Shown in pieces: positions 21,641-38,807 of a DNA stretch of 55,128 nucleotides. The stretch's first letter is position 1; each line of letters begins with the position of its first letter. The stretch comes from a virus (lineage: Duplodnaviria; Heunggongvirae; Uroviricota; Caudoviricetes). Made by a program: the position numbers and the translations under genes. The notes under the pieces are model-generated. The model made no database searches and had not been told where the DNA came from. It saw only the letters and a program-made list of their open reading frames with translations. The DNA lies in IMG/VR virus record IMGVR_UViG_2728369181_000005. One strand, written 5' to 3'.

Positions 21641-25332
<3,692 letters not shown>

Positions 25333-25352
<20 letters not shown>

Positions 25353-26650
25353 TCTCCCGCATATTGCCAGCATGGCCTTTAATGAGCCGCTGATGCTTGA
25401 ACCCGCCTATGCGCGGGTTTTCTTTTGTGCGCTTGCAGGCCAGCTTGGGATCAGCCGCCTGACGGATGCGGTGTCCGGCGACAGCCTGACTGCCCAGGAG
25501 GCACCCGCGACGCTGGCATTATCCGGTGATGATGACGGACCACGACAGGCCCGCAGTTATCAGGTCATGAACGGCATCGCCGTGCTGCCGGTGTCCGGCA
25601 CGCTGGTCAGCCGGACGCGGGCGCTGCAGCCGTACTCGGGGATGACCGGTTACAACGGCATTATCGCCCGTCTGCAACAGGCTGCCAGCGACCCGATGGT
25701 GGACGGCATTCTGCTCGATATGGACACACCGGGCGGAATGGTGGCGGGAGCATTTGACTGCGCTGACATCATCGCCCGTGTGCGTGACATAAAGCCGGTA
25801 TGGGCGCTGGCCAACGACATGAACTGCAGTGCAGGTCAGCTGCTTGCCAGTGCCGCCTCCCGACGTCTGGTCACGCAGACCGCCCGGACAGGCTCCATCG
25901 GCGTCATGATGGCTCACAGTAATTACGGCGCTGCGCTGGAGAAACAGGGCGTGGAAATCACGCTGATTTACAGCGGCAGCCATAAGGTGGATGGCAACCC
26001 CTACAGCCATCTACCGGATGATGTCCGGGAAACACTGCAGTCCCGGATGGATGCAACCCGCCGGATGTTTGCACAGAAGGTGTCGGCATATACCGGCCTG
26101 TCCGTGCAGGCTGTGCTGGATACCGAGGCTGCAGTGTACCGCGGTCAGGAGGCCATTAATGCCGGACTGGCTGATGAACTTGTTAACAGCACCGATGCGA
26201 TCACCGTCATGCGTGATGCGCTGGATGCACGTAAATCCCGTCTCTCAGGAGGGCGAATGACCAAAGAGACTCAATCAACAACTGTTTCAGCCACTGCTTT
26301 GCAGGCTGACGTTACTGACGTGGTGCCAGCGACGGAGGGTGAAAACGCCAGCGCGGCGCAGCCGGACGTGAACGCGCAGATCACCGCAGCGGTTGCGGCA
26401 GAAAACAGCCGCATTATGGGGATCCTCAACTGTGAGGAGGCTCACGGACGCGAAGAACAGGCTCGCGTGCTGGCAGAAACTCCCGGTATGACCGTGGAAA
26501 CGGCCCGNNNNNNNNNNNNNNNNNNNNNNNNNNNNNNNNNNNNNNNNGTGACACTGCGCTGGATCGTCTGATGCAGGGGGCACCGGCACCGCTGGCTGCA
26601 GGTAACCCGGCATCTGATGCCGTTAACGATTTGCTGAACACACCAGTGTA
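25333..26650 (+). CDS. C: Head protease/scaffold protein C (Nu3 nested in frame)
   Basis: GTG start at 25333 (VTAELRNLPHIASMAF...) as in lambda C; N-run 26508-26547 inside; true stop TAA 26648-26650. Confidence 0.9.
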
Positions 26651-26993: not shown

Positions 26994-27013
26994 CCTTACC
27001 CTTCATCACTAAA

Positions 27014-27035
27014 GGCCGCCTGTGCGGCTTTTTTT
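27014..27035 (+). terminator. Rho-independent terminator between D and E
   Basis: GCCGC-CTGT-GCGGC hairpin followed by a T7-8 tract. Confidence 0.7.
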
Positions 27036-27048
27036 ACGGGATTTTTTT

Positions 27049-27293
27049 ATGTCGATGTTCACAACCGCCCAGCTGCTGGCGGCAAATGAGCAGAAATTTA
27101 AGTTTGATCCGCTGTTTCTGCGTCTCTTTTTCCGTGAAAGCTATCCCTTCACCACGGAGAAAGTCTATCTCTCACAAATTCCGGGACTGGTAAACATGGC
27201 GCTGTACGTTTCGCCGATTGTTTCCGGTGAGGTTATCCGCTCCCGTGGCGGCTCTACCTCCGAATTTACGCCGGGATATGTCAAGCCGAAGCA
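27049..27293 (+). pseudogene. E: Major capsid protein E, N-terminal fragment (gene split by island insertion)
   Basis: MSMFTTAQLLAANEQKFKFD...GYVKPKH matches the lambda gpE N-terminus, then reads into island DNA and stops at 27324. Confidence 0.9.
27284..27293. repeat. Left copy of 10-bp insertion core AGCCGAAGCA (attL core)
   Basis: Identical 10-mer at 38017-38026; the flanking bases differ, and joining the outer flanks restores a continuous E reading frame (VKPKHEVN). Confidence 0.8.
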
Positions 27294-27402
27294 CTTAGCA
27301 TGGCTTTCTGAGGCTTTCGTGTAGTTGCTGGTTTTTACACTTAATCTTTTGATAATAAAGAGTAAGTTTATCTGGCGCTTTCACTGGATTTTCCTCGTTA
27401 TC

Positions 27403-27441
27403 TGTGTGTTGCAATCATCTCTGTATTGCAGCTTGTATTGC
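27403..27441. repeat. TGT(A/G)TTGCA direct repeats at island left end (candidate integrase arm sites)
   Basis: TGTGTTGCAA, TGTATTGCAG, TGTATTGC within 39 bp just upstream of the island int start; same motif at 37920-37940. Confidence 0.5.
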
Positions 27442-27456
27442 TTTTTGGGGCTAAAA

Positions 27457-28692
27457 ATGGCTGGCGAGAACAAACTGAGCGACAAAGCACTTAAAGGATA
27501 TCTGGGGAAACCTAGAGAAAAGCAGATCACCATTGCTGATGGAAAGGGGCTTTCTATTCGTGTGAGTACCAAGGGGGCTGTGAGCTTTGTTTTCTTCTAC
27601 AGGTTAGCAGGTGGCCGGGCTGCTCCGGTCTGGCTAACGTTGGGTAAATATCCTGATATGTCACTCAAACAGGCAAGGGAAAAGCGCGACGAGTGCCGTG
27701 GTTGGTTGGCTGACAAACGTGATCCGCGTATTCAGATTAAGATTCAGGCTGAAGAACGCTTAAAGCCGGTCACAGTGGAGGATGCACTAAATTACTGGTA
27801 TGAAAATTACTGTAAGGTGCGTCGTAAAACTCATGCTGTAACGCTTGGCAGATTTCGAAAGCATATCTTTCCCTATATCGGTCATTTGCCCGTAAATGAC
27901 ACTCACCTATATGAATGGCTGGACTGTTTTGACCGAATTAAACGTAATGCACCAGTTATGGCGGCGTATGTTTTTTCTGACACTAAATTAGCTCTTCGTT
28001 TTTGTCGGGTACGCCAGTACGCGACGTGTGATGCTTTAAAGGATTTGCGCATGAGTGATGTGGGGCAGATTGCAGGTAAGCGGGATCGGGTTCTGGATGA
28101 AGCCGAACTGGGCCAGCTCTGGAAGGCAATTTTTGTCGAGCCTGATTTAAAACTAATGTCTGAATACACGCGAAAAATGTTTGTGCTTTGTACAGTATTT
28201 GGATGTCGAATGAGTGAAGCCCGATTATCAGAATGGAGCGAATGGGATCTAGAAAGTTGGGTTTGGACTGTACCGAAAGATCACTCAAAAACTGGTGTTG
28301 AAATTGTCAGGCCAGTACCTGAAATTCTACGGCAGTGGGTAACGGATGTTCACGAAGAGACAAAACATACTGGTTATGTGCTGGGAAGTCTGCGAATTAG
28401 AGAAAGCGTAAGCAAGATTGGGGGGAAAATCGGTAAACGTTTGGGCCATGAAAAACAATGGTCACTACACGACCTTAGAAGAACGCTATCTACTCATCTA
28501 AGTGATCTCGGTGTTGAATTTTATGTAGTAGAACAACTGTTAGGCCATGCGCTACCTGGCGTGGCAGGTGTTTACAACCGGAGTAAGTTTATGGCTAAAA
28601 AACTGGATGCTCTGGAACTCTGGACTACATATCTCAATAGCATCGCAGCTGCTGATTCAAAAGTGACAATCCTCAAACAAAAGGCTGGTTAG
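27457..28692 (+). CDS. int: Tyrosine integrase (P4-like family) of the island
   Basis: Start MAGENKLSDKALKGYLGKP...; C-terminal catalytic region with HDLRRT...LGH...Y; first gene at island left end. Confidence 0.88.
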   Translation: MAGENKLSDKALKGYLGKPREKQITIADGKGLSIRVSTKGAVSFVFFYRLAGGRAAPVWLTLGKYPDMSLKQAREKRDECRGWLADKRDPRIQIKIQAEERLKPVTVEDALNYWYENYCKVRRKTHAVTLGRFRKHIFPYIGHLPVNDTHLYEWLDCFDRIKRNAPVMAAYVFSDTKLALRFCRVRQYATCDALKDLRMSDVGQIAGKRDRVLDEAELGQLWKAIFVEPDLKLMSEYTRKMFVLCTVFGCRMSEARLSEWSEWDLESWVWTVPKDHSKTGVEIVRPVPEILRQWVTDVHEETKHTGYVLGSLRIRESVSKIGGKIGKRLGHEKQWSLHDLRRTLSTHLSDLGVEFYVVEQLLGHALPGVAGVYNRSKFMAKKLDALELWTTYLNSIAAADSKVTILKQKAG

Positions 28693-28693
28693 C

Positions 28694-28915
28694 ATGAAAA
28701 AAATGGCAATTGTTGATAAAAAGGGGCTGGAGTACATTCCTAACATTGACCGAATGATCCGTGAGAAAGAATGTCGGGAGCTAACCACTCTTGCGAACAG
28801 CACACGCTGGAAGCTTGAAAAGGAGGGGAAATTCCCCAAGCGAATCAAAATCGGATCTACGGCGGTGGCTTATAGACTCTCTGAGATTCAAGCTTGGATA
28901 AGAGGTGAATGGTAA
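28694..28915 (+). CDS. AlpA-family transcriptional regulator / excisionase-like
   Basis: 73 aa with AlpA-type HTH; directly follows the integrase. Confidence 0.7.
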   Translation: MKKMAIVDKKGLEYIPNIDRMIREKECRELTTLANSTRWKLEKEGKFPKRIKIGSTAVAYRLSEIQAWIRGEW

Positions 28916-28941
28916 GTTAGGGAGGTATTCCTCCCTATATC

Positions 28942-29625
28942 TTACAGGAAATTTTTTAAATCAGGGTTTTTTCCAAATGCGCTCTTATAATATACTGTTG
29001 CAATCTCGTTAAAAATAGTTTTTATATCATCGGTAACCACTATTGTTGCTACGCGCAAATCTTTTTGATATTCATTTAAATCTGGAGGGGTATAGTCCAA
29101 TAGCGTTGATTTATCCAAGATTAAATGTTCTAACATGGCATAGCGCTCAATCAATGTTTTATAAAAATGATATTGATTTTCACTGTTAGCATGTGCACAG
29201 TTTATTGCAAGTAAATACGTTATTTCATTATCTAGATGTGCACGGACAAGGCTTGTATAGGTTTTTTTACGATCTAGATCAAAGGGATGGTATCCAGCAT
29301 TTTCATCAATGAACTTCAATAGATGATATAATATTCTGAAGTAGCTTCCAAAAACAGCATCATGATTGTGCATCAGTGTATTAGTGTCTTTTAAAGAAAC
29401 CAATCCATTCATCATTTTATTAATTAACTCTGAGTAATTTGATTTTTTTCTAAGATCATTTAGAGCATTGTTATGTTGAGATAACATGAGAGAAAATGTT
29501 GATTCAAAAGATGATTGCTTTTTAGCAATTAATGCAACTAACACTGCTGTGCAAGTCCCGAGTGCCACGAAGAAATTTATAATGTTTGATGCAGTGAATA
29601 CAGCATCGTCAGGAGTTGGAGTCAT
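28942..29625 (-). CDS. Hypothetical AT-rich membrane-anchored protein (candidate accessory/defence gene)
   Basis: 227 aa; N-terminal hydrophobic helix FFVALGTCTAVLVALIA; very AT-rich; follows the small regulator at 29658-29852 on the same strand. Confidence 0.45.
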   Translation of the reverse strand: MTPTPDDAVFTASNIINFFVALGTCTAVLVALIAKKQSSFESTFSLMLSQHNNALNDLRKKSNYSELINKMMNGLVSLKDTNTLMHNHDAVFGSYFRILYHLLKFIDENAGYHPFDLDRKKTYTSLVRAHLDNEITYLLAINCAHANSENQYHFYKTLIERYAMLEHLILDKSTLLDYTPPDLNEYQKDLRVATIVVTDDIKTIFNEIATVYYKSAFGKNPDLKNFL

Positions 29626-29657
29626 TTGAATATCCTATTCAATAAAAATTAAAAAAA

Positions 29658-29852
29658 TTAGCCTTTAGGTTCTATACCTTTACGGCGAAGCTCAGCACGA
29701 ACTAATTCTTTAATCCAATTGGCCAAGCTCATTCCTTCCTGAGCTGCTGATTCAGCCATCTGTTCTTTGAGTTCAGGATTGATTCGGATCTGAAACGCAG
29801 GGGCTTTGCCGGCTCCTTTTGGCTGCTTATCTCTTTGAATTGTAGTTGACAT
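29658..29852 (-). CDS. Small ribbon-helix-helix-like DNA-binding protein
   Basis: 64 aa; FQIRINPELKEQMAESAAQEGMSLANWIKELV fits an RHH (Arc/CopG-like) pattern. Confidence 0.45.
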   Translation of the reverse strand: MSTTIQRDKQPKGAGKAPAFQIRINPELKEQMAESAAQEGMSLANWIKELVRAELRRKGIEPKG

Positions 29853-29988
29853 GTGTGTACCTATTGCTTAGCATCAGTGTTGAATAGGTACACACATTAA
29901 CATGATGTTATACCTATAAACAACGCCCTAGGGTGCTCGCAACACACCTAGGGCGTCTAACCACAAACCGTTAACTGGAGTAACGACT

Positions 29989-30354
29989 ATGGCTGGAACA
30001 CAGCATACCCAAACTCACCCTAAATTTATATACATCTTTCTGGCGCTACATCGCGATCGCATAGCAGATGGAGCAACTACGGTACATGTAGCCGCTGACA
30101 CGCTGGTTGATGCGCGCAAGATGGTTAAGGAGATGGGCTATACTGCGGCTTTCTGGAAAGGGCGGGAAGAAAACACGCTGTTTATTCAGAAATGTGAAAA
30201 CAATTTCATCTGGCGTTTTATCGCCCTGAGTACGGCACAACCGCGCGTGATTACCATCGAGGCCACCAGCGAACAGGAAGCCCGCCAGCAATCCCCAACT
30301 GGCTGCGTGATGATATTCGCCGCCCGTATTCGTCAGGAGGTGTGCCATGAATGA
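29989..30354 (+). CDS. Hypothetical protein (possibly Icd-like)
   Basis: 121-codon ORF at the start of the island rightward operon; Icd-like assignment is from memory and weak. Confidence 0.3.
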   Translation: MAGTQHTQTHPKFIYIFLALHRDRIADGATTVHVAADTLVDARKMVKEMGYTAAFWKGREENTLFIQKCENNFIWRFIALSTAQPRVITIEATSEQEARQQSPTGCVMIFAARIRQEVCHE

Positions 30355-30571
30355 TCTTTATTTTAAAGTGCTGACACATGCTGAAAACGCGCTCGTTTGT
30401 GGCAAAAATATGCGAGAAATCTTATCAACCTGGCTTGATGGGACAACAAATGCGGAACACGATGAACGGGATGCTAATTTAGCTGGAGCGTTAATTACGT
30501 TACTTGATCCTGTCATCAAAGAGTTGGATGAAGCTATAAAAATACACGACCAGAGCTATACCGGAGAATAA
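30347..30571 (+). CDS. Hypothetical protein
   Basis: 74-codon ORF overlapping neighbours. Confidence 0.35.
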   Translation: MNDLYFKVLTHAENALVCGKNMREILSTWLDGTTNAEHDERDANLAGALITLLDPVIKELDEAIKIHDQSYTGE

Positions 30572-30574
30572 AAA

Positions 30575-30862
30575 ATGAAAAATAAATTTTCTGGCTTTAT
30601 TGCCAGCGGTCAAACTCATTCAAAAATCAGCCTTGGGGATATTTTCAAAGACAGCTATGGCTATCGGGTAAAGATTATTTCGGTTGATGATCGTCGTGTC
30701 TCTTATTTGCGTGATGGTTATGATTTTGAATGTGTTATGCCGCGTCAGCAGTTCGAAAGAGATTTCATTCTGGTAAAAAATTGCAAGACAGATAATCAGA
30801 GGCGTGCCGCAGGCTATATCCGTAAAATTCGGGCAATGTTAGTTGCCGGAGGTAACAAATGA
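30575..30862 (+). CDS. Hypothetical protein
   Basis: 95-codon ORF; ATGA overlap with the primase gene. Confidence 0.35.
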   Translation: MKNKFSGFIASGQTHSKISLGDIFKDSYGYRVKIISVDDRRVSYLRDGYDFECVMPRQQFERDFILVKNCKTDNQRRAAGYIRKIRAMLVAGGNK

Positions 30863-32679
30863 AACGTGCTCCGAACTTAAAATACCAACCGCGCGACAAA
30901 ATGACGGAAGTCATCATTTTTGCTGGCAGTGATGCCTGGAGCCATGCAAAAGAATGGAATGAATGGGCAGGTAAGCATATTGCAGCAGATGATACACCAC
31001 CAGTCATTCTGGGTACGGAACAACTGGAAAACCTGGATGATATGCAAATTATCGATGAAGGCCGTCATTATGTGCGTGTTTATCGTGCCGGAAAGATTGC
31101 AGAGAAAAGTCTGACGAAGGTTGCGACATTACTTGCTATTGCAGGCGTAAAGGAAGCACGTTGTTACCGTAGCTTTGTTGATCGAGAGCCTGAAGACTGG
31201 ACTCCGCGCCTTGTCGGCCTAAAAGCTGAAGCGGAGCATGGGGAAAGTCTGGTGATTGAACTGCCAGTGAAGAAGGCAGAGCGCAAAAATGACGAGCGTG
31301 CTTCATCTTTGGCGTTGAATCAGATGGGGGCCAGCCAGCGCGGTGAAGTTCTCCTTGCACATTACGGCGGCGAACTGGCAATCAATGCCGACTCTGACAC
31401 CGTTCATCATTACAACGGCGTTGTATGGGAGCCGGTTCAGGATAAAGAGTTACAGCGTGCTATGGCGCAGATTTTCATTGATGCGGAGATCAGCTATTCG
31501 CAGAACGCTATTAAATCGGCGGTAGATACCATGAAGTTAAGTTTGCCTGTAATGGGGAATACAGCCCGTAACCTGATTGGATTCAGTAACGGGGTATTTG
31601 ATACCAGAACTGGTAATTTTCGGGAGCATAACAAAAACGACTGGTTGTTAATTGCCAGTGAATTACCTTTCAGCCCACCAGCAGAGGGGGAAACGCTGGC
31701 AACACATGCGCCGAATTTCTGGAAGTGGTTGCGCCGTTCGGTGGCTGATAATGACCGCAAGGCAGATCGCGTACTGGCGGCATTATTCATGGTGCTGGCG
31801 AACCGGTACGACTGGCAGTTATTCATTGAGGTAACAGGGCCGGGGGGAAGTGGTAAAAGTGTGATGGCGGAGATTTGCACCATGCTGGCGGGTAAGGCGA
31901 ATACAGTATCAGCAAGCATGAAGGCGCTGGAAGATGCAAGGGAACGTGCGTTAGTGGTTGGCTTTTCGCTGATTATCATGCCGGATATGACCCGCTACGC
32001 TGGTGATGGGGCAGGGATTAAGGCCATTACAGGCGGTGACAAGGTGGCAATTGACCCGAAACACAAAGCCCCCTATTCAACGCGTATTCCGGCAGTAGTG
32101 CTGGCGGTTAACAATAACGCCATGTCATTCAGTGACCGCAGCGGGGGGATCTCACGTCGTCGGGTGATATTCAATTTTTCGGAAGTTGTACCGGAGAACG
32201 AACGCGATTCGATGCTGGCGGAAAAAATAGAAGGTGAGCTGGCGGTAGTGATTCGCCATCTGCTTACACGGTTTGCTGATCAGGACGAAGCCAGACGCCT
32301 GTTATATGAGCAGCAGAAATCTGAAGAAGCACTGGCGATAAAGCGAGAGGGGGATTCGCTGGTGGACTTCTGCGGCTATCTCATGGCATCGGTAATGTGT
32401 GATGGCCTGTTAGTGGGTAATGCTGAAATTGTGCCATTCAGCCCACGCAGGTATCTCTATCATGCCTATCTGGCTTATATGAGGGCACATGGGTTTGGTA
32501 AACCTGTAACACTGACGCGCTTCGGTAAAGATATGCCGGGGGCAATGGCGGAATATGGCAGGGAGTATATGAAACGGAAAACGAAGCACGGTTTGCGTTC
32601 AAACGTGACACTGACGGAGGAATCAGAAGACTGGATGCCATCATGTGTATCGGTCACTAATGACGATAGCAAAAATTAA
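30859..32679 (+). CDS. Primase-helicase (P4 alpha-like replication protein)
   Basis: 606 aa; Walker A GPGGSGKS and Walker B-like FSLIIMPDM in the C-terminal half; followed by an iteron array. Confidence 0.85.
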   Translation: MKRAPNLKYQPRDKMTEVIIFAGSDAWSHAKEWNEWAGKHIAADDTPPVILGTEQLENLDDMQIIDEGRHYVRVYRAGKIAEKSLTKVATLLAIAGVKEARCYRSFVDREPEDWTPRLVGLKAEAEHGESLVIELPVKKAERKNDERASSLALNQMGASQRGEVLLAHYGGELAINADSDTVHHYNGVVWEPVQDKELQRAMAQIFIDAEISYSQNAIKSAVDTMKLSLPVMGNTARNLIGFSNGVFDTRTGNFREHNKNDWLLIASELPFSPPAEGETLATHAPNFWKWLRRSVADNDRKADRVLAALFMVLANRYDWQLFIEVTGPGGSGKSVMAEICTMLAGKANTVSASMKALEDARERALVVGFSLIIMPDMTRYAGDGAGIKAITGGDKVAIDPKHKAPYSTRIPAVVLAVNNNAMSFSDRSGGISRRRVIFNFSEVVPENERDSMLAEKIEGELAVVIRHLLTRFADQDEARRLLYEQQKSEEALAIKREGDSLVDFCGYLMASVMCDGLLVGNAEIVPFSPRRYLYHAYLAYMRAHGFGKPVTLTRFGKDMPGAMAEYGREYMKRKTKHGLRSNVTLTEESEDWMPSCVSVTNDDSKN

Positions 32680-32690
32680 ACTTATGGAAT

Positions 32691-32916
32691 AACTGTTCAC
32701 CACTGTTCACCCTGTCATAAATATCTTTTATATCAGTATATTATAGGGTGAACAGTTATTTATGAACTGTTCACCAAACTATTCACTGTTCACCTTTTTG
32801 ATTGTTTATTGAGCTTCAAGGGTGAACAGTGGTGAACAGTTGGTGAATAGTTTTTGTGAAACTGTTCACCCATTAACATTATGAATTAAAAGAGAAAATA
32901 TCAAAAGGTGAACAGG
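32691..32916. repeat. Island replication-origin iterons
   Basis: About ten copies of ACTGTTCACC / GGTGAACAGT in both orientations immediately after the primase stop. Confidence 0.8.
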
Positions 32917-32966
32917 TGAAGGGTTAAAACGCAAAAATTTTAATTTACTGCTGTGAGATAAAGCCT

Positions 32967-33212
32967 ATGACAGCGAAGCACACAAAAAAATCACAATCGC
33001 ACGCCCTTGATTTGACGGAACACTGGTTAAGGGTGTCGATAAAAATCATCGACCGCAACGCCGGGGAAGGATACGCGAAAGCACATCCCGAACTGATTAG
33101 CGCATTCATGACAACGGCGGCTGCAAACTTTGCCACTCTGACCGAACGGGAGATTGCTGAAGCGGAGGAAGTGACAACAATCAATATTAAGTCCGGAGAG
33201 CAGGCAGCATGA
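32967..33212 (+). CDS. Hypothetical protein
   Basis: 81-codon ORF after the iteron array. Confidence 0.35.
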   Translation: MTAKHTKKSQSHALDLTEHWLRVSIKIIDRNAGEGYAKAHPELISAFMTTAAANFATLTEREIAEAEEVTTINIKSGEQAA

Positions 33213-33658
33213 CGGCGCAAATATCAGTTTACGGGCGGTTGGTGGACGACCCGCAGACAAAACAGACCAGCAAGGGCACCCCCATGACGCTGGCGCGTAT
33301 GGCGGTATCACTGCCCTGCAGTCAGTCGGATGACGGTCAGGCGACGATGTGGTTATCTGTCCTGGCGTTTGGCAGACAAGCCGACGCACTGGCAAAGCAT
33401 CACAAAGGCGAACTCCTGAGCGTGGCGGGTAACATGCAGATGAGCCAGTGGACTGGACAGAACGGCGAAACGCGGCAGGGCTGGCAGGTTATCGCAGACA
33501 GCGTAATCAGTGCGCGATCGGTGCGACCGGGCGGCAAAAAAGGCCAACAGGGGCAGGCTACTGACGCACTGAACAGAGCAAAACAACAGGCAGATCAGCA
33601 AGGAAGCCAGCCACCAGTGGGAGATAATGAGCAATGGGGAGATGATATCCCGTTTTAA
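33209..33658 (+). CDS. Single-stranded DNA-binding protein (SSB-like)
   Basis: N-terminal OB-fold pattern ISVYGRLVDDP...ARMAVSL...WLSVLAFG; Gln/Gly-rich tail ending DDIPF. Confidence 0.7.
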   Translation: MTAQISVYGRLVDDPQTKQTSKGTPMTLARMAVSLPCSQSDDGQATMWLSVLAFGRQADALAKHHKGELLSVAGNMQMSQWTGQNGETRQGWQVIADSVISARSVRPGGKKGQQGQATDALNRAKQQADQQGSQPPVGDNEQWGDDIPF

Positions 33659-33875
33659 ATATTGCCAATAAAAAAAGGCCGGAAAAAATAAATTTTCCGG
33701 CATGCTACATAAATCCCGACCAAAGGGAGTGAAGATATTAACACTAATTGTCCGCACTGAAGTTGTCACCCCAAAACTTTATACAACATTGCACTTGGTT
33801 GCATGTGTTCGCATGACAAATATCGGTGGTAGCATATATCCACAATTATTTTTAATGAATGCAAAGAGGATGCGT

Positions 33876-34916
33876 ATGGTTGATTTATATTCGCCTACTC
33901 AGCTTGTACAGGTGGTTAATGCTGTAGATGTACAAAAACAACTAAATGCGTTGTTTACCAGTTTGTTTTTTACTCGCTCGGTAATGTTTGAATCGCGCGA
34001 TATTATTCTTGATACAATCGACGATCCAAATATCCCAATTGCAGCGTTTTGTTCTCCTATGGTGGGTAGTAAAGTTTCACGTGACGAAGGGTACGAATCA
34101 AAAACAATTCGTCCAGGCTATATGAAGCCGAAAAGCAGCATTGATCCAAATAAGTTAGCTGTGCGCCCTGCTGGTGTATCACCTGAGCAATACAATGCTT
34201 TTGGGGCGCGTAATATTAAAGTTAAACAGGCGATTGTAAATCAAGCTAAAGCTATTCGTGCACGTATTGAATGGCTTGCTGTTCAGGCAATCACAACGGG
34301 GAAAAATATCATTGAGGGCGATGGTATTGAACGTTATGAGCTGGACTGGAATATTAAACCACAAAATATCATCACTCAGTCTGGCGGTGCTGAGTGGTCA
34401 GGTAAGGATAAAGAAACTTTTGATCCAAATGATTATATTGAGAGCTACGCAGAATTTAGTGAGGGCGTCACTAATATTATCATTATGGGCGGTAATGTAT
34501 GGAAGAAATACCGTTCATTCAGAGCAATAAAAGAGGCTCTGGATACCCGTCGTGGTTCTAATTCCGAACTGGAAACGGCCCTTAAAGACCTTGGTGATTC
34601 GGTGAGTTTTAAAGGGTATATGGGCGATGTTGCGATTGTTGTTTACAGCGGGCGTTATACCGACGAGGACGGAACAGAAAAACATTTCCTTGATCCTGAT
34701 TTGATGGTGCTTGGCAATACGGCTCTTCAGGGGATTGTCGCCTATGGCGGTGTTCAGGATCCGGAGCTAATCCGAATGGGGCTGACTAAAGCCGAACTTG
34801 CACCGAAAAACTATATTGTGCCTGGTGATCCGGCTATTGAATATGTGCAGACACATTCAGCACCACAGCCAATACCGGCCCGCATCAATCGTTTTGTTAC
34901 CGTTCGCATTGGCTAA
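33876..34916 (+). CDS. Island-encoded major capsid protein (lambda gpE-like)
   Basis: AAGAGGA SD before ATG 33876; aligns with lambda E (GYMKPK vs GYVKPK; ITQSGGAEWSGKDKETFDPNDYIESYA; DTRRGSNSELETA; GDVAIVVYSG). Confidence 0.8.
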   Translation: MVDLYSPTQLVQVVNAVDVQKQLNALFTSLFFTRSVMFESRDIILDTIDDPNIPIAAFCSPMVGSKVSRDEGYESKTIRPGYMKPKSSIDPNKLAVRPAGVSPEQYNAFGARNIKVKQAIVNQAKAIRARIEWLAVQAITTGKNIIEGDGIERYELDWNIKPQNIITQSGGAEWSGKDKETFDPNDYIESYAEFSEGVTNIIIMGGNVWKKYRSFRAIKEALDTRRGSNSELETALKDLGDSVSFKGYMGDVAIVVYSGRYTDEDGTEKHFLDPDLMVLGNTALQGIVAYGGVQDPELIRMGLTKAELAPKNYIVPGDPAIEYVQTHSAPQPIPARINRFVTVRIG

Positions 34917-34925
34917 GGGGGAGCA

Positions 34926-35267
34926 ATGGCTACTCATTACACTGAACTCATGGCTGGCACTGAAGCACTGGTGACTACGCTGGGGATATTTTCAGCTAAT
35001 AAAGGGGTAATTCCTGCATTTACGCCACTGATGCAGGAAGATGCAACAGGTGCACTGGTGGTATGGGATGGTTCGAGCGTAGGTAAAGCGGTTTATGTTT
35101 CCGCTGTACAAATCGACACCGCGAAAAAAACACAGGCTCAGGTCTATAAGACAGGTGTCTTAAATGTTGATGCTCTGAACTGGCCTGAGTCTGTTAAAGA
35201 ACTGTCAGTAAAGGTTGCAGCGTTTGTTGGCTCAGGTATTTCTGTTCAGCCGCTGGCTCGTGTGTAA
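34926..35267 (+). CDS. Island-encoded decoration protein (lambda gpD-like)
   Basis: 113 aa; LVVWDGSSVGKAV parallels lambda [14 protein letters not shown]; same length class. Confidence 0.6.
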   Translation: MATHYTELMAGTEALVTTLGIFSANKGVIPAFTPLMQEDATGALVVWDGSSVGKAVYVSAVQIDTAKKTQAQVYKTGVLNVDALNWPESVKELSVKVAAFVGSGISVQPLARV

Positions 35268-35278
35268 AGGGGGATACA

Positions 35279-35662
35279 ATGCAGAATGATTACAATGACC
35301 TTAAGCCAATTGCCGAAATGATGTACCCGAATCCAGCTGTAGAGGAATTAAAAGCTATCGCTGACAAAATGTGTTTAAGCGAGCGCCTTGTTGATATGAA
35401 TCAGGTGATGGAAATTACAACCCTGAGTCGTCGTACACTGCTAAACCTTGAGGCTAGTGGAGAGTTCCCGGAGCGTGTGCAGGTTACGGAAGGGCGTAAG
35501 GCCTGGTATTTAAGTGAAGTGATCGACTGGATAAATAATATTCCTCGCGCTTCTGAATATTGCCGCGTACCTGTCCCAAAAAAGCCAGATGCGGCGCTAT
35601 GCCTCAAGATTGAGCGTGTACGCCGCAATGCACGGGATGGTCGCTATAAGCTGATTGGTTGA
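35279..35662 (+). CDS. AlpA-type HTH domain protein (possible packaging/regulatory factor)
   Basis: 127 aa; C-terminal half carries an AlpA-like HTH (MNQVMEITTLSRRTLLNLEASGEFPERV). Confidence 0.5.
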   Translation: MQNDYNDLKPIAEMMYPNPAVEELKAIADKMCLSERLVDMNQVMEITTLSRRTLLNLEASGEFPERVQVTEGRKAWYLSEVIDWINNIPRASEYCRVPVPKKPDAALCLKIERVRRNARDGRYKLIG

Positions 35663-35689
35663 TGAAATTAGGGCCCGCTCTGGCTGGCG

Positions 35690-35770
35690 GGTCCTTTCCG
35701 GTGATCCAGAACGTTACGGGGCGTCAGGCGCGCGGGTTTTCGCTATTTATGAGCATTTTAAGGGGACTGG
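35690..35770. other. Island cos-like site with divergent cosN core (35718-35729)
   Basis: GGTCCTTTCCGGTGATCCAGAACGTTACG|GGGCGTCAGGCG|CGCGGGTTTTCGCTATTTATGA: flanks match the prophage cos, the 12-nt core differs at about five positions. Confidence 0.7.
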
Positions 35771-35878
35771 TGGTGGTTTTGTTGTTCGCTATATCTGTAT
35801 GAATAATAAGAGAAAAATACAATCAATACACCAACCTGAAACAGTAATTAAGTTGTGGTATCAATGAAATTACACCTG

Positions 35879-36406
35879 ATGAACAAAAAAAACATGGCAA
35901 AAAGTTGCCGTGTAAGCGCCACTGCGTTCGATAAGTGGGGAGTGATTCCCGTCGAGCGTAAGGGCCGTGAGGCGTTCTATGATGTTGCCAGTGTAATAGA
36001 TAATCGGGTTAACAATGCAATCAGCCAGATTACAAACGAAACGGGCGATATTGATGACGATGAACTTTTACGCGTCAGGATCAGATTACTGACAGCACAG
36101 GCAGAGGCGCAGGAGCTTAAAAACGAGCGCGAACGCGGCGACGTTATTGATACAGAGTTTTGTATGTATGTTCTTTCCAAACTGGCGAGTCAGATTTCAT
36201 CTATCATGGACAGCCTGCCGCTTACCATGCAAAGGCGCTTCCCACAGATGACTCCGGCTATGCTGGATGGACTTAAAAAGGAAGTGGCTAAAGCCTGTAA
36301 TGCCAGTGCCGGCGTTGCTGACAACCTCCCACAGATACTGGCTGATTATCTGATGGAAAGTACAGGAAACGTACCGGATAAGTTGCAGCTGAATAAGGAT
36401 AAGTAA
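35879..36406 (+). CDS. Island small terminase (Nu1-like, diverged)
   Basis: Aligns with lambda Nu1 (VIPVERKGREAFYDV vs MPVLRGGGKGNEVLYD; AQAEAQELKNERERGDVIDTEFC vs AQADAQELKNARDSAEVVETAFC); start codon choice (35864/35879/35894) uncertain. Confidence 0.7.
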   Translation: MNKKNMAKSCRVSATAFDKWGVIPVERKGREAFYDVASVIDNRVNNAISQITNETGDIDDDELLRVRIRLLTAQAEAQELKNERERGDVIDTEFCMYVLSKLASQISSIMDSLPLTMQRRFPQMTPAMLDGLKKEVAKACNASAGVADNLPQILADYLMESTGNVPDKLQLNKDK

Positions 36407-36417
36407 CGTAGTACGCT

Positions 36418-36693
36418 ATGACTGAATCCGAACTACTGAAAGTAATCTGCCATGCTGGTGGAGTCAGCCACCAGCATGACGAACAGGCCACGCAGCCGGG
36501 CAGTGTCACCGCTGAAAATTACGCTCGTGTGGTTGCTGAGGTTATGTGGCGTGACGGTATAGAACTGAACGGACAGGATTGCTTAGTCATCCGCACCAAA
36601 GTGCTGGCTATACTGGCAGCTAGGCGGAGGCAGGGACAACGCCAGAACGTTGCATCGTACCAGTGGAAGAAGCCTGACAGACTGCGGCGATAA
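36418..36693 (+). CDS. Hypothetical protein
   Basis: 91-codon ORF following the TerS-like gene. Confidence 0.35.
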   Translation: MTESELLKVICHAGGVSHQHDEQATQPGSVTAENYARVVAEVMWRDGIELNGQDCLVIRTKVLAILAARRRQGQRQNVASYQWKKPDRLRR

Positions 36694-37095
36694 CTCTTTG
36701 ATTTTCTCGACGGCCCCAAAATGGGCCTTACCATAGCCAGCTAATAAATGAGCAAGCCTCAAAAGTGAGGTTTGTGGCCGTTTGGCCTATTCATATGCTA
36801 ACTCGTTGATATTCCTGACGACGCAAATTTACGCCTTGTGGCTGGTAGTCGAATTGCAAATTTGCAACTCGACTATGAAACTACAGGTAGTTTGGGTAGT
36901 AAAAGCAACACACTGATTTTGGGGCTTCTTCGCGATACCTAATATTATGGTATCGGTGGAAGAGATATCGTTTCTCATAGGTTAGCACCGAGGGCGGAGT
37001 TCCGCCCTCATCGAAAAATTGCTTACGAGTCGTCAAAATAAATTAATCGACTGAGTATAATGATTAACTAATTGCTCGTGTTACTTCATTATACG

Positions 37096-37857
37096 TTATT
37101 TCCCATCTTTAAGGTTTAACCAAGTGTTAATTAAAAAAAGAGCCATTGAGCCTGATAAATTTACTGCAAGTTCGGCATGCCTTGGGGATGGCTTAATTGA
37201 TGAGCTGTTCGTTCCATGTGCATCACCGAGTTTATTACGAAGAGTACCTAACCCATTTACAACTGCAGAACAACCGCCGAGAATTTGTTTGAAGATATTT
37301 TCAGTATGTTGGTCGGCAGATAGGTTAAGTTCTTTTGAAAGAGTTTTATAAAGCTCTGACATTTCAATATTTTTATTATTATACTGAATGCCCATATCAT
37401 CAAGAATGTGTTTGCAAACTGTTTCAAGAAGTGTTCTTGCGGAGGTTATCGCACCATCCGGATCTGTATGGCGCCGTTCAAGTGCTTTTATCCAAACGGC
37501 GTGGACTCCATCCTCGTTAAACTTTCTTAATACATCAGATATGTCTTCATCCGCTGGAGCTTTATTTTTCCCTTCTAGATAGTCCAGCATCGGCTGAAAT
37601 GCCTTATAAATCAAATCTCTCCGGGGGGCATACTTTTCAGTCTTTTTTATAAATCCCCAAAATTCTTTTAGTGAGCGATTAGTTCTCACAAACTCTGGTA
37701 ATAGCTGATGTAAAGGAGGATTTTGTAAGAAATATGTTCTTAGAAGCAAATAATCATTATTAGCTTCATCCTGGGCTCCTGTAGCTCTTGCAATTAGTAT
37801 GTTTTGAAGCGCTACTGCGCGCTCTAGGTCATTTTGAAGGGTATCTATAATATTCAT
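37096..37857 (-). CDS. Abortive-infection-like protein (Abi_C/HEPN-type motif)
   Basis: 253 aa, AT-rich, opposite strand at the island right end; C-terminal GTLRNKLGDAHG (R-x6-H) matches the Abi_C/HEPN signature as recalled. Confidence 0.6.
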   Translation of the reverse strand: MNIIDTLQNDLERAVALQNILIARATGAQDEANNDYLLLRTYFLQNPPLHQLLPEFVRTNRSLKEFWGFIKKTEKYAPRRDLIYKAFQPMLDYLEGKNKAPADEDISDVLRKFNEDGVHAVWIKALERRHTDPDGAITSARTLLETVCKHILDDMGIQYNNKNIEMSELYKTLSKELNLSADQHTENIFKQILGGCSAVVNGLGTLRNKLGDAHGTNSSSIKPSPRHAELAVNLSGSMALFLINTWLNLKDGK

Positions 37858-37919
37858 AACAAATCTTTATTCACTTCATTTGTGGGTTGATAATTGAATG
37901 GTTTGTACATTGATTTCTG

Positions 37920-37940
37920 TGTATTGCAGTGTGTATTGCA
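37920..37940. repeat. TGTATTGCA direct repeats at island right end
   Basis: TGTATTGCAG and TGTATTGCA, same orientation as the left-end copies. Confidence 0.5.
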
Positions 37941-38016
37941 ACATAGCCATTCAGGTAGAGATTATGCTCTATTTTTCCTCTTATATCATTCACATACTTA
38001 CACCATTGACTCATGT

Positions 38017-38026
38017 AGCCGAAGCA
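38017..38026. repeat. Right copy of 10-bp insertion core AGCCGAAGCA (attR core)
   Basis: Identical to 27284-27293. Confidence 0.8.
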
Positions 38027-38807
38027 TGAGGTGAATCCGCAGATGACCCTGCGTCGCCTGCCGGATGAAGATCCACAGAATCTGGCGGATCCGGCTTACC
38101 GTCGCCGTCGCATCATCATGCAGAACATGCGTGACGAAGAGCTGGCCATTGCCCAGGTCGAAGAGATGCAGGCAGTTTCTGCCGTGCTTAAGGGCAAATA
38201 CACCATGACCGGTGAAGCCTTCGATCCGGTTGAGGTGGATATGGGCCGCAGTGCGGCGAACAACATCACGCAGTCCGGCGGTACGGAGTGGAGCAAGCGT
38301 GACAAGTCCACGTATGACCCGACCGACGATATCGAAGCCTACGCGCTGAACGCCAGCGGTGTGGTGAATATCATCGTGTTCGATCCGAAAGGCTGGGCGC
38401 TGTTCCGTTCCTTCAAAGCCGTCAGGGAGAAGCTGGATACCCGTCGCGGCTCTCATTCTGAGCTGGAGACAGCGGTGAAAGACCTGGGTAAAGCGGTGTC
38501 CTATAAGGGGATGTATGGCGATGTGGCCATCGTCGTGTATTCCGGACAGTACGTGGAAAACGGTGTCAAAAAGAACTTCCTGCCGGACAACACGATGGTG
38601 CTTGGGAACACTCAGGCACGCGGTCTGCGCACCTATGGCTGTATTCAGGATGCGGATGCATTGAGTGAGGGTATTAATGCGTCTCCCCGTTATCCGAAAA
38701 ACTGGAAGACATCCGGCGATCCGGCGCGTGAGTTCACCATGATTCAGTCAGCACCGCTGATGCTGCTGGCTGATCCTGATGAGTTCGTGTCCGTACAACT
38801 GGCGTAA
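38020..38807 (+). pseudogene. E: Major capsid protein E, C-terminal fragment
   Basis: PKHEVNPQMTLRRLPDEDPQNL... to ...DEFVSVQLA matches lambda gpE from residue ~83 onward; no start of its own. Confidence 0.9.

What the first reader, a model, noticed from the sequence alone, without database searches (positions are those of the whole stretch)
28942..29852. Leftward pair beside the island integrase: small RHH-like regulator plus AT-rich membrane-anchored 227-aa protein
The two genes are co-oriented and closely spaced in the accessory position next to int/alpA. The larger has one N-terminal hydrophobic helix and an otherwise helical, Asn/Lys-rich sequence with no family I recognise. It could be an exclusion protein, a toxin with its regulator, or the island's repressor module.
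Basis: inference. Interest (0 to 1): 0.45.

Follow-up and report, generated by a model that had tools for sequence, protein, structure and literature searches.

The report
Phage-defence cargo behind a satellite's regulator
The two genes are a small DNA-binding regulator that belongs to the backbone of a phage satellite island, followed by a swapped-in, membrane-anchored member of a known abortive-infection (anti-phage) protein family; this is an ordinary example of satellites carrying defence genes.

Summary
Both ORFs are real. The 227-aa protein does have a family. It matches Pfam PF16872 (putAbiC) at 60 bits against a cutoff of 22. RefSeq already names it "putative phage abortive infection protein". 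It has one N-terminal membrane helix, as lactococcal AbiP does.

The 64-aa protein is a ribbon-helix-helix (RHH) protein of the YlcI/YnfO family. It is not the specific partner of the 227-aa protein. In related islands the same RHH type is followed, on the same strand and 6-32 nt away, by six unrelated cargo genes. The putAbiC gene also occurs elsewhere without an RHH gene.

The island (27294-38026) is a published type: a helper-embedded PICI, a phage-inducible satellite island inserted in the capsid gene of its helper prophage. PICIs are known to carry immune genes at this end.

My model is inferred from sequence only. The RHH binds a 15-bp inverted repeat that overlaps a divergent promoter. 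The repeat arms change together with the RHH's DNA-reading strand. The RHH represses the replication operon and, from its own promoter, also expresses the defence cargo. A conserved antisense RNA candidate lies beside it.

Verdict: a new member of a known kind, of low to moderate interest. A toxin-antitoxin reading is not supported.

The parts
28942..29625 (-). 227-aa membrane-anchored protein of the AbiC/AbiP family (Pfam PF16872 putAbiC). It is the variable cargo of the slot.
   Evidence: Pfam putAbiC 60.2 bits against a cutoff of 22, residues 88-171. PADLOC AbiC 2.8e-4 and AbiP 3e-4. 25 of 27 close homologues hit AbiP, best 4.3e-9. The AF2 model is all-helical, pLDDT 88.5. One hydrophobic segment at about residues 14-34, and GC 0.323. 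RefSeq names it 'putative phage abortive infection protein'.
29626..29657 (-). 32-nt spacer between the RHH stop and the cargo start, with an AGGA ribosome-binding site and no terminator. The two genes are probably co-transcribed.
   Evidence: Sequence; no terminator-like site here. The same short same-strand spacing (6-32 nt) holds for six unrelated cargo genes behind this RHH type. Homology to the sister island L011 resumes at 29649.
29658..29852 (-). 64-aa ribbon-helix-helix protein (YlcI/YnfO family, Arc-like). It is the island's backbone regulator.
   Evidence: Family matches. An RHH-family ORF follows the conserved hairpin motif in nearly all of the 129 pattern hits, whatever the cargo. 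The model island EcCICFT073 has one at the same place.
29851..29897 (.). Perfect 15-bp inverted repeat (29851-29865 and 29883-29897, 17 nt between the arms) overlapping the RHH ATG. This is the proposed RHH operator.
   Evidence: The arms change together, and in step with the RHH beta-strand motif, across islands, while the loops vary freely within a group. If transcribed it would also fold as an RNA hairpin: -20.1 kcal/mol, z -4.5.
29846..29874 (+). Rightward sigma-70-like promoter (TTGACA, 17 nt, TAGCAT) for the icd-like/primase operon. Its -35 lies in RHH codons 1-3, one repeat arm fills its spacer, and its -10 lies in the loop.
   Evidence: 10 of 12 matches. A -10-like hexamer (at least 4 of 6) lies 16-18 nt after the TTGACA in 28 of 32 distinct contexts; those contexts were picked by the motif ATGTCAAC, so the TTGACA itself is by construction there. 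In loci fetched in other ways the TGTCAAC after the start codon (GTG in L002, TTG in L017) recurs in 11 of 13 islands.
29894..29902 (-). Candidate extended -10 (TGTTAATGT) of the leftward promoter for the RHH-cargo transcript.
   Evidence: A TGnTAAnGT-type element ends 40-41 nt before the RHH ATG in all window-type islands. Inference only.
28918..28937 (.). GC-rich hairpin (TAGGGAGG-TATT-CCTCCCTA) between the convergent stop codons of the cargo gene and alpA. It probably ends both transcripts.
   Evidence: Folds at about -17 kcal/mol on either strand. The simple terminator scan did not call it, because no clean T-run follows.
29915..30007 (-). Candidate antisense RNA of about 80 nt opposite the icd-like leader and start codon: -10 TATGCT at 30007-30002, stem-loop 1 with an anti-Shine-Dalgarno CUCC loop, and stem-loop 2 followed by a U-run.
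   Evidence: RNAalifold on 31 islands gives 22 pairs, 8 with compensatory changes. 97.2% of cells are paired; covariation score 0.267 against 0.149 shuffled (0 of 500), and at most 0.104 when partners are slid. MFE -36.3 kcal/mol, z -4.5 on the minus strand, against -27.3 on the plus strand. Rfam gives only sub-threshold symR and R1162-like matches.

Best explanation
The pair is not a dedicated two-component system.

The island. It spans 27294-38026 and is an 11capE-type helper-embedded PICI: a phage satellite inserted in the capsid gene E of a lambda-like prophage.

The RHH gene. The 64-aa RHH gene belongs to the island's conserved backbone. I propose (inferred) that an RHH oligomer binds the 15-bp inverted repeat at 29851-29897. 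One arm fills the spacer of a rightward promoter (TTGACA-17-TAGCAT) that drives the icd-like/primase replication operon. The other arm covers that promoter's start region and the start region of the RHH's own leftward promoter. The RHH would therefore hold the replication operon off and limit its own synthesis.

The cargo slot. The position just downstream of the RHH gene is a plug-in slot. It is transcribed from the RHH promoter while the island is quiescent, much as lambda rexAB rides behind cI.

The cargo here. In this island the slot holds a horizontally acquired gene of 32% GC. It encodes a single-pass membrane-anchored protein of the AbiC/AbiP family. By homology it most likely acts alone as an anti-phage abortive-infection protein. 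Its helical domain should face the cytoplasm (Lys-Lys follows the helix; the N-terminus is acidic). Infecting phages would trigger it. It would then block phage development at an early-to-middle step, as AbiP blocks phage DNA replication and the switch-off of early transcripts. That protects the host, the helper prophage and the island.

What is shown: gene structure, family membership, the backbone/cargo distinction, the covariation of the repeat arms, and the promoter-like elements. What is inferred: DNA binding, repression, co-transcription, membrane topology and the defence phenotype.
For: Family membership. Pfam putAbiC scores 60.2 bits against a cutoff of 22. PADLOC AbiC and AbiP each match at about 3e-4. 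25 of 27 close homologues hit AbiP and 18 hit AbiC. The architecture is one membrane helix plus a helical domain, matching the published description of AbiP (PMC13064643). RefSeq gives the same name.

Autonomy. Homologues stand without an RHH, alpA or int gene in Morganella and inside an Atlantibacter conjugative element.

Slot and backbone. In islands with 96-97% identical int/alpA, the cargo is replaced by a TIR protein on the other strand, by a 241-aa unknown, or by SWIM plus a 265-aa unknown. A further island with the same layout (L012) carries a 178-aa unknown. Among the IMG/VR loci, 79 distinct slot sequences range from 234 to 2317 nt and hold about 34 ORF families. Six unrelated cargo genes sit 6-32 nt downstream of the window-type RHH on the same strand. 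The breakpoints lie at the alpA stop (28914) and 9 nt beyond the RHH stop (29649). GC falls from 0.446 to 0.323 at that boundary.

Operator. The repeat is a perfect 15-bp inverted repeat. Its arms match the RHH beta-strand motif: PAFQIRI with GTGTGTACCTAT; PPFHMRI with GTGTACACCTAT, seen in both E. coli and Pantoea; P[IM]F[SN][VI]RL with TGTAT[GA]GACC; PPFQFRLD with TGTAATGTGT. The rightward promoter geometry is conserved.

Literature. PICIs carry immune systems at their 5' and 3' ends (PMC11364771). This island type and its dynamic zone between alpA and the replication genes are published (PMC10111431). A second Abi-type gene (Abi_C/AbiJ-like) sits at the island's 3' end.

Against: The inverted repeat could be an RNA hairpin that hides the RHH start codon rather than a protein operator. 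One group carries a G-U-compatible change. The repeat and the RHH N-terminus are adjacent, so their correlation could partly reflect shared descent. The loci used for the survey were chosen by a sequence motif, and many come from related Enterobacteriaceae.
Confidence: 0.6

Rival explanations
1. The pair is a type II toxin-antitoxin module. The RHH is the antitoxin and autorepressor, and the membrane protein is the toxin. The module would either stabilise the island or act as a defence that kills the cell when the antitoxin decays.
For: The gene order (small RHH first, larger gene 32 nt downstream on the same strand) is typical of such modules. The RHH matches HicB, RelB and VapB antitoxin-type RHH profiles, mostly below their thresholds. 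Some RefSeq records call the orthologue a 'HicB family antitoxin'.
Against: The pairing is not conserved. An RHH 84% identical, with the same operator, precedes an unrelated 241-aa gene. Five further unrelated genes follow this RHH type. Other islands keep an RHH next to an empty slot or next to cargo on the opposite strand. The putAbiC gene occurs without an RHH gene. The RHH fold takes residues 20-57 of 64, which leaves no toxin-binding tail. AbiP was not toxic to its host (PMC13064643).
Confidence: 0.06
2. The 227-aa protein is a superinfection-exclusion protein. It would act at the inner membrane to block DNA entry by incoming phages, so infected cells survive, rather than an abortive-infection protein acting after entry.
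For: It has a single membrane anchor and is probably expressed from a quiescent mobile element. Prophage exclusion proteins often look like this (own knowledge). The activity of this subfamily is unknown.
Against: Family membership points to AbiC/AbiP. These act after DNA entry: AbiP on replication and the transcript switch, AbiC on capsid protein production. The positive-inside rule places the large conserved domain in the cytoplasm, not the periplasm (inference).
Confidence: 0.12
3. The 227-aa protein serves the satellite's own life cycle and is not a general defence. It might interfere with the helper phage or time the release of the satellite.
For: In other islands the slot also holds Bro-N, AntA and Rha-type regulatory proteins. 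The published description calls this the 'Bro zone' and links it to regulation and immunity.
Against: The gene is dispensable for the island type: only 11 of 5426 complete E. coli genomes carry this version, while sister islands carry other genes or none. The same subfamily also sits in non-satellite contexts. Known PICI interference genes lie in the packaging module (own knowledge).
Confidence: 0.08
4. The inverted repeat at the RHH start is not an operator. It would be an RNA hairpin in the leftward 5' leader that hides the ribosome-binding site and AUG of the RHH gene. The RHH would then regulate elsewhere, or regulate only the cargo.
For: The hairpin is stable: -20.1 kcal/mol, z -4.5. The conserved core ATAGGT of the proximal arm could be the Shine-Dalgarno sequence, with ACCTAT as its complement. 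One group carries a change that keeps G-U pairing. The candidate leftward -10 would place the transcript start inside the distal arm.
Against: The arms line up with the -35/-10 spacer and the start region of a conserved rightward promoter. Arm sequence tracks the RHH beta-strand residues, including one motif shared between E. coli and Pantoea. If transcription starts inside the distal arm, the full stem cannot form. The two roles do not exclude each other.
Confidence: 0.2

Closest known systems
Lactococcal AbiP and AbiC (the 'AbiC/P' group; Pfam PF16872 putAbiC)
   Same: Same Pfam family and profile matches to both PADLOC models. It is a single-gene system carried on mobile DNA. It has an N-terminal membrane anchor followed by an all-helical domain. 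Like AbiP it has one membrane helix and is of similar size (227 aa; the review's AbiC/AbiP structural superposition cites 228 aa). As reported for AbiC and AbiP, structure comparison suggests no function.
   Different: It comes from Enterobacterales rather than Lactococcus and is only distantly related (18-19 bits to the PADLOC models). Typical family members are 280-340 aa with two membrane helices and a conserved WGxFGDFxGG segment that this protein lacks. Its soluble domain is near neutral (pI 6.5). No phenotype, trigger or nucleic-acid binding has been shown.
Immune-gene hot spots of phage-inducible chromosomal islands (Fillol-Salom et al. 2022, as cited in PMC11364771), and the 'Bro/dynamic zone' of Gram-negative and helper-embedded PICIs (Mageeney et al. 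2023, PMC10111431)
   Same: The location is the same: between the int-alpA module and the replication module. The content is very variable. The island has the published 11capE layout and a 10-bp att core in capsid gene E. A second Abi-type gene lies at the 3' end.
   Different: The papers I could read do not mention the RHH gene, its operator, or a putAbiC cargo. In PMC10111431 the words 'ribbon', 'RHH', 'HicB', 'putAbiC' and 'abortive' do not occur.
Lambda cI-rexA-rexB: a repressor operon that carries a defence gene expressed in the lysogen
   Same: This is how it would work. A regulator gene that is on in the quiescent state has a defence gene directly downstream in the same transcription unit. 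This is inferred from the 32-nt spacer, the ribosome-binding site and the absence of a terminator.
   Different: The regulator is an RHH protein, not a lambda-type helix-turn-helix repressor. The cargo is one gene of a different family. The second position is exchanged freely among islands. Co-transcription has not been shown.
Dual plasmid copy control by a small RHH repressor plus an antisense RNA (pMV158 CopG/RNAII; R1 CopB/CopA)
   Same: The resemblance is from my own knowledge of those systems. A small RHH protein with an operator at the promoter of the replication operon is combined with a short, structured antisense RNA. That RNA lies opposite the leader and start of the first gene of the operon.
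   Different: Here the RHH gene is divergent from the replication operon, not part of it. The element is an integrated satellite whose published master regulator is the activator AlpA. No Rfam family reaches its threshold.
P22 Arc/Mnt-type ribbon-helix-helix repressors
   Same: Arc is the nearest solved sequence relative, at a marginal E of 0.02. PHROG 'Arc-like repressor' matches at 9e-8. It is a small basic protein (pI 9.9) with a symmetric DNA repeat beside its gene.
   Different: Arc's operator half-sites are about 11 bp apart (own knowledge). Here the arm centres are about 32 bp apart. Binding has not been tested.

Membership tests
Pfam PF16872 putAbiC / AbiC-AbiP abortive-infection group | Match to the family profile above the curated threshold | tested here: met
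   60.2 bits against a cutoff of 22, E 2.8e-16, residues 88-171 on profile positions 2-78 of 80. All 33 homologues carry the same precomputed Pfam domain.
Pfam PF16872 putAbiC / AbiC-AbiP abortive-infection group | Similarity to the experimentally characterised members (AbiC, AbiP) | tested here: met
   PADLOC AbiC 2.8e-4 and AbiP 3e-4 for the window protein, which is weak. 25 of 27 close homologues hit AbiP (best 4.3e-9) and 18 hit AbiC (best 1.1e-5). I did not have the lactococcal sequences for a direct alignment.
Pfam PF16872 putAbiC / AbiC-AbiP abortive-infection group | N-terminal membrane anchor (one helix in AbiP, two in AbiC) followed by a helical soluble domain | tested here: met
   One hydrophobic segment at about residues 14-34. 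The AF2 model has a long helix at 12-59 and eleven further helices, pLDDT 88.5. The architecture is as described in PMC13064643.
Pfam PF16872 putAbiC / AbiC-AbiP abortive-infection group | Acts as a single gene | tested here: met
   Tested by context only. Homologues occur without an RHH, alpA or int gene in Morganella and in an Atlantibacter conjugative element.
Pfam PF16872 putAbiC / AbiC-AbiP abortive-infection group | Confers phage resistance with an abortive outcome; for AbiP, also nucleic-acid binding and dependence on the membrane anchor | not testable with these tools
   Needs plaque, burst and survival assays, and binding assays.
Type II toxin-antitoxin module (RHH antitoxin plus toxin) | Conserved pairing of the two genes | tested here: not met
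   The same RHH type precedes six unrelated genes. Other RHH types stand next to empty slots or next to cargo on the opposite strand. The cargo occurs without an RHH gene.
Type II toxin-antitoxin module (RHH antitoxin plus toxin) | The antitoxin has a toxin-binding extension beyond the DNA-binding fold | tested here: not met
   The RHH profile covers residues 20-57 of 64, so only 7 residues follow it.
Type II toxin-antitoxin module (RHH antitoxin plus toxin) | The downstream protein belongs to a known toxin family | tested here: not met
   No toxin family appears among the Pfam, NCBIfam or PADLOC matches; only putAbiC, AbiC and AbiP match.
Ribbon-helix-helix transcription factors (Arc/MetJ/CopG superfamily; YlcI/YnfO family) | Match to an RHH profile above threshold | tested here: met
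   NCBIfam YlcI_YnfO_N 37 bits against 30, and Pfam HicB 27.4 against 21. Pfam RHH_1 scores 16.8, below its cutoff of 20.5.
Ribbon-helix-helix transcription factors (Arc/MetJ/CopG superfamily; YlcI/YnfO family) | A repeated DNA element at a promoter next to the gene, whose sequence tracks the protein's beta-strand | tested here: met
   A perfect 15-bp inverted repeat. At least five beta-strand motif groups each have their own arm sequence. The repeat overlaps a conserved promoter-like site. Shared descent of adjacent sequences could contribute to this pattern.
Ribbon-helix-helix transcription factors (Arc/MetJ/CopG superfamily; YlcI/YnfO family) | Sequence-specific DNA binding and repression | not testable with these tools
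   Needs gel-shift or footprinting assays and reporter fusions.
Helper-embedded PICI of the 11capE type (Mageeney et al. 2023) | Gene order int, alpA, variable zone, replication genes, captured late genes; size about 11 kb | tested here: met
   Order: int, alpA, cargo, RHH, icd-like, DUF4222, primase, SSB, capsid, decoration protein, AlpA-like HTH, small terminase, Abi_C gene. The island spans 27294-38026, about 10.7 kb.
Helper-embedded PICI of the 11capE type (Mageeney et al. 2023) | Integration inside the capsid gene of a lambda-like prophage, with a 10-bp identity block at the ends | tested here: met
   AGCCGAAGCA occurs at 27284-27293 and 38017-38026. The reading frame of capsid gene E continues across the two ends. 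RefSeq marks both halves as partial 'major capsid protein'. The paper reports a 10-bp block.
Helper-embedded PICI of the 11capE type (Mageeney et al. 2023) | Excision and mobilisation on induction of the helper | not testable with these tools
   Shown for Eco567.11capE in the paper, not for this sequence.

The most novel reading that the evidence does not exclude
The most novel reading concerns the regulatory unit the cargo gene rides on, not the cargo gene itself. Gram-negative PICIs, including the model island EcCICFT073, would carry a conserved and so far undescribed switch of plasmid copy-control type. The switch would have two parts. One is a small RHH repressor with several operator specificities that shuts the icd-like/primase operon. 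The other is an antisense RNA of about 80 nt against that operon's leader. In one RHH lineage, the RHH's own transcript would serve as a plug-in expression slot for interchangeable defence genes. This would add a negative control layer to elements now described as governed by the activator AlpA.
Probability: 0.35. Interest if true: 0.5.

Novelty: new member of a known kind. Interest (0 to 1): 0.25.

Why it matters
If the model is right, this island adds an untested enterobacterial branch of the AbiC/AbiP family to the list of defence genes carried by phage satellites. No mechanism or structure is known for that family in any organism, so an E. coli member would be an easy system in which to study it.

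The comparative result may be more useful. The slot behind the RHH gene holds at least six unrelated genes, several of them without any family. It could therefore be mined for new defence candidates.

The RHH, its operator and the antisense RNA would also explain how these satellites keep their replication genes silent until the helper phage is induced. None of this changes current thinking. It fills in detail.

Tried and rejected
- Literature searches for 'putAbiC' and 'PF16872' found no paper. 'PICI' together with 'ribbon-helix-helix' found only an unrelated Macrococcus paper.
- Rfam gave no match above a gathering score anywhere in 27000-38500. In particular there was no C4 or isrK immunity RNA of the P4 type. 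There were only sub-threshold symR (27 bits, threshold 61) and R1162-like (26 bits, threshold 55) matches over the hairpins.
- Megablast of 28600-30400 against the phage collection gave no match.
With the single RHH protein in genome contigs it returned only 6 loci. I then used the conserved hairpin motif as a DNA pattern in IMG/VR, which gave 120 loci.
- I considered the toxin-antitoxin reading and rejected it on gene pairing and on the length of the RHH.
- I tried to compare the helper prophage's own ylcI/iss pair (seen in L001) as a parallel. The window's prophage differs there and no such ORF appeared at the expected place, so I dropped it.
- I looked for a metal site or catalytic motif among the conserved residues. 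Only F40, Y123, R128 and E166 are invariant across the wide family. K104, K121, N142 and H167 are nearly so. No known motif emerges, and I had no model coordinates to test whether these residues cluster.
Full report
**1. What is there**

Two minus-strand ORFs occupy exactly the stated interval: 29852..29658 (64 aa) and 29625..28942 (227 aa). They are 32 nt apart. An AGGA ribosome-binding site lies 9 nt before the second ATG, and no terminator-like site lies between them. They are convergent with alpA (28694-28915), which follows int (27457-28692). A 20-nt GC-rich hairpin (28918-28937) lies between the two stop codons.

The cargo gene has GC 0.323. The RHH gene and the whole island have 0.446, and the flanking prophage has about 0.55.

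**2. The large protein has a family**

Pfam PF16872 (putAbiC, 'putative phage abortive infection protein') matches at 60.2 bits against a cutoff of 22, E 2.8e-16. PADLOC's AbiC and AbiP models each match weakly, at about 3e-4. Of 27 close homologues, 25 hit AbiP (best 4.3e-9) and 18 hit AbiC. PHROG 38218 matches full length but has no annotated function. RefSeq already calls the identical protein (WP_001560451.1) 'putative phage abortive infection protein'.

Close relatives (48-83% identity) are confined to Enterobacterales. A profile search of 1.84 billion representatives found 2698 at E <= 1e-3. Most are 280-340 aa with a longer N-terminus.

The AlphaFold2 model is confident (pLDDT 88.5) and entirely helical, with a long first helix at residues 12-59. 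Only residues of about 14-34 are hydrophobic enough for a membrane helix. Lys-Lys follows that helix and the N-terminus is acidic, so the domain probably faces the cytoplasm. That topology is an inference.

Across the wide family only F40, Y123, R128 and E166 are invariant.

**3. The small protein is an RHH**

NCBIfam YlcI_YnfO_N scores 37 bits against a cutoff of 30. Pfam HicB scores 27.4 against 21. PHROG 'Arc-like repressor' matches at 9e-8. P22 Arc is the nearest solved sequence relative, at a marginal E of 0.02. The protein is basic (pI 9.9). The RHH fold takes residues 20-57 of 64.

**4. Where it sits**

The window is E. coli. The region is 100% identical to strain AST216.

The island runs from 27294 to 38026. 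Its gene order is int, alpA, cargo, RHH, icd-like, DUF4222, primase, SSB, capsid, decoration protein, an AlpA-like HTH protein, small terminase, and an Abi_C/AbiJ-like gene.

It interrupts capsid gene E of a lambda-like prophage. A 10-bp identity block, AGCCGAAGCA, lies at both ends. This is the published 11capE type of helper-embedded PICI (PMC10111431). That paper defines a 'dynamic' zone between alpA and the replication genes. A second paper states that PICIs carry immune systems at their 5' or 3' ends (PMC11364771).

**5. Partner or backbone?**

- *Sister islands in E. coli.* Sister islands with 96-97% identical int and alpA carry something else in the slot: a TIR protein on the other strand, a 241-aa unknown, or SWIM plus a 265-aa unknown. 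A further island with the same layout (L012) carries a 178-aa unknown. Every one keeps an RHH gene divergent from the icd-like gene.
- *Wider survey.* I scanned IMG/VR with a conserved hairpin motif from the intergenic region and obtained 120 loci. An RHH-family ORF follows the motif in nearly all of the 129 pattern hits (120 new loci plus loci already held). Next comes a slot of 234-2317 nt, with 79 distinct sequences and about 34 ORF families. Then alpA and int follow on the other strand.
- *Cargo behind this RHH type.* The window-type RHH (beta-strand motif PAFQIRINP) is followed on the same strand, 6-32 nt away, by six unrelated genes. They are putAbiC, the 241-aa unknown, SWIM, a DUF5677 protein, a 449-454-aa unknown and a 147-aa membrane protein.
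- *A near-identical RHH with other cargo.* An RHH 84% identical, with the same operator, precedes the 241-aa gene.
- *Cargo without an RHH.* The putAbiC subfamily sits in this slot in six genera. It stands alone in Morganella and inside an Atlantibacter conjugative element.
- *Breakpoints.* Compared with L011, homology breaks at the alpA stop (28914) and resumes 9 nt beyond the RHH stop (29649).

The RHH is therefore part of the backbone, and the gene behind it is exchangeable cargo. This, together with the RHH's lack of a C-terminal tail, argues against a toxin-antitoxin pair.

**6. What the RHH probably does (inference)**

A perfect 15-bp inverted repeat (29851-29865 and 29883-29897) overlaps the RHH start codon. 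Across islands the two arms change together, in step with the RHH beta-strand, which is the DNA-reading element of this fold:

| RHH beta-strand motif | Repeat arm |
|---|---|
| PAFQIRI | GTGTGTACCTAT |
| PPFHMRI (E. coli and Pantoea) | GTGTACACCTAT |
| P[IM]F[SN][VI]RL | TGTAT[GA]GACC |
| PTFQIRIT | GTACGTAC |
| PPFQFRLD | TGTAATGTGT |

Within a group the loops vary freely.

The first codons of the RHH gene read ATG-TCA-AC in the window. In loci fetched without reference to this sequence, the TGTCAAC that follows the start codon (GTG in L002, TTG in L017) recurs in 11 of 13 islands. On the other strand it reads TTGACA, a perfect -35 element. A -10-like hexamer (TAGCAT in the window) lies in the loop, 16-18 nt away, in 28 of 32 distinct contexts; those 32 were themselves picked by the ATGTCAAC motif. 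One arm therefore fills the spacer of a rightward promoter for the icd-like/primase operon, and the other arm covers its start region.

A conserved TGnTAAnGT element, a candidate extended -10, ends 40-41 nt before the RHH ATG. It would drive the leftward RHH-cargo transcript and would also be covered by bound RHH.

The repeat could instead, or also, act as an RNA hairpin that hides the RHH start codon. I cannot separate the two readings.

**7. A neighbouring RNA candidate**

Between the repeat and the icd-like gene lie two stem-loops on the minus strand. The first has the loop CUCC, complementary to the icd-like ribosome-binding site. The second is GC-rich and is followed by a U-run. A -10 element (TATGCT or TATGAT) lies 7-9 nt upstream of the reverse complement of the icd-like ATG.

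On 31 distinct sequences:
- 97.2% of cells are paired.
- 8 of 22 pairs show compensatory changes.
- The covariation score is 0.267, against 0.149 in shuffles (0 of 500) and at most 0.104 when partners are slid.
- About a fifth of the paired cells are G-U, so only the minus-strand RNA keeps the fold.
- MFE is -36.3 kcal/mol (z -4.5) on the minus strand, against -27.3 on the plus strand.

Rfam has nothing above threshold here.

One caveat applies. The loci were selected with a pattern that fixes the outer stem and the loop of the second hairpin. The first hairpin and the inner stem of the second were not constrained.

The model island EcCICFT073 has the same RHH, icd-like gene and hairpins. It carries direct repeats instead of the inverted repeat.

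**8. Comparison with what is known, and novelty**

The cargo is a new, untested enterobacterial member of a known family, sitting in a known kind of hot spot on a published island type. The way it would be expressed resembles lambda cI-rexAB. The RHH plus antisense RNA resembles plasmid copy control such as pMV158 CopG/RNAII. Both comparisons rest on my own knowledge of those systems.

The papers I could read describe AlpA as the master regulator of Gram-negative PICIs. They do not mention the RHH. The library does not cover all journals, so I cannot say the RHH is undescribed.

**9. Verdict**

- The toxin-antitoxin reading is not supported.
- 'No family' is wrong.

Interest is low to moderate (0.25). 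The most novel reading that remains open concerns the regulatory unit, not the gene pair itself.

Noticed in passing
window 27284-27293 and 38017-38026 (island 27294-38026): The whole island is inserted in capsid gene E of a lambda-like prophage, with a 10-bp identity block AGCCGAAGCA at both ends. The helper cannot make its capsid protein until the island excises. This matches the published 11capE helper-embedded PICI (PMC10111431).
   Followed up: yes
window 37096-37857 (minus strand): A second defence-type cargo gene lies at the island's 3' end: 253 aa, Pfam Abi_C 83 bits, PADLOC AbiJ 2e-21, GC 0.38. A sister island has a HEPN-domain gene at the same end (L002).
   Followed up: partly
window 29915-30007 (minus strand): A candidate antisense RNA of about 80 nt lies opposite the leader and start codon of the icd-like gene. 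It has a conserved -10, two covarying stem-loops (one with an anti-Shine-Dalgarno loop) and a U-run. It is conserved in more than 60 distinct island sequences, and no Rfam family reaches its threshold.
   Followed up: partly
L149 (E. coli CFT073, NC_004431 1377930-1386000), 7243-8053 in locus coordinates: The model island EcCICFT073 has the same layout: a YlcI/YnfO RHH gene divergent from an icd-like gene, and the same antisense hairpins. Two direct repeats GGTGTGGCCCAC replace the inverted repeat. The small ORFs carry late locus tags, so they were probably absent from the original annotation.
   Followed up: partly
L024, L037, L085, L123, L041, L054, L060, L091, L011 (slot downstream of the RHH gene): Several genes that occupy the same slot as putAbiC have no Pfam or PADLOC match: a 449-454-aa protein, a 241-aa protein and a 147-aa membrane protein. 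Another is a DUF5677 protein. By position they are candidate defence genes.
   Followed up: no
L004, L009 (Klebsiella, Pectobacterium) and L145 (Scandinavium): Related islands carrying putAbiC are inserted in other phage head genes: a Clp-protease/capsid fusion gene in L004 and L009, and a Phage_cap_E capsid gene in L145. L004 and L009 use a different replication gene (an AAA_25 helicase). One of them carries a GmrSD-type gene in a second slot.
   Followed up: no
window 35279-35662 (plus strand): A second AlpA-domain protein (127 aa, Pfam Phage_AlpA 35.8 bits) lies inside the island's late region, between the decoration-protein gene and the small-terminase gene. Its role is unknown.
   Followed up: no
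window 23001-23059, 26508-26547, 44373-44410, 46934-46997, 49881-49984: Runs of N (masked sequence) interrupt prophage genes. They appear as X runs in the translated ORFs near 26.5 kb.
   Followed up: no
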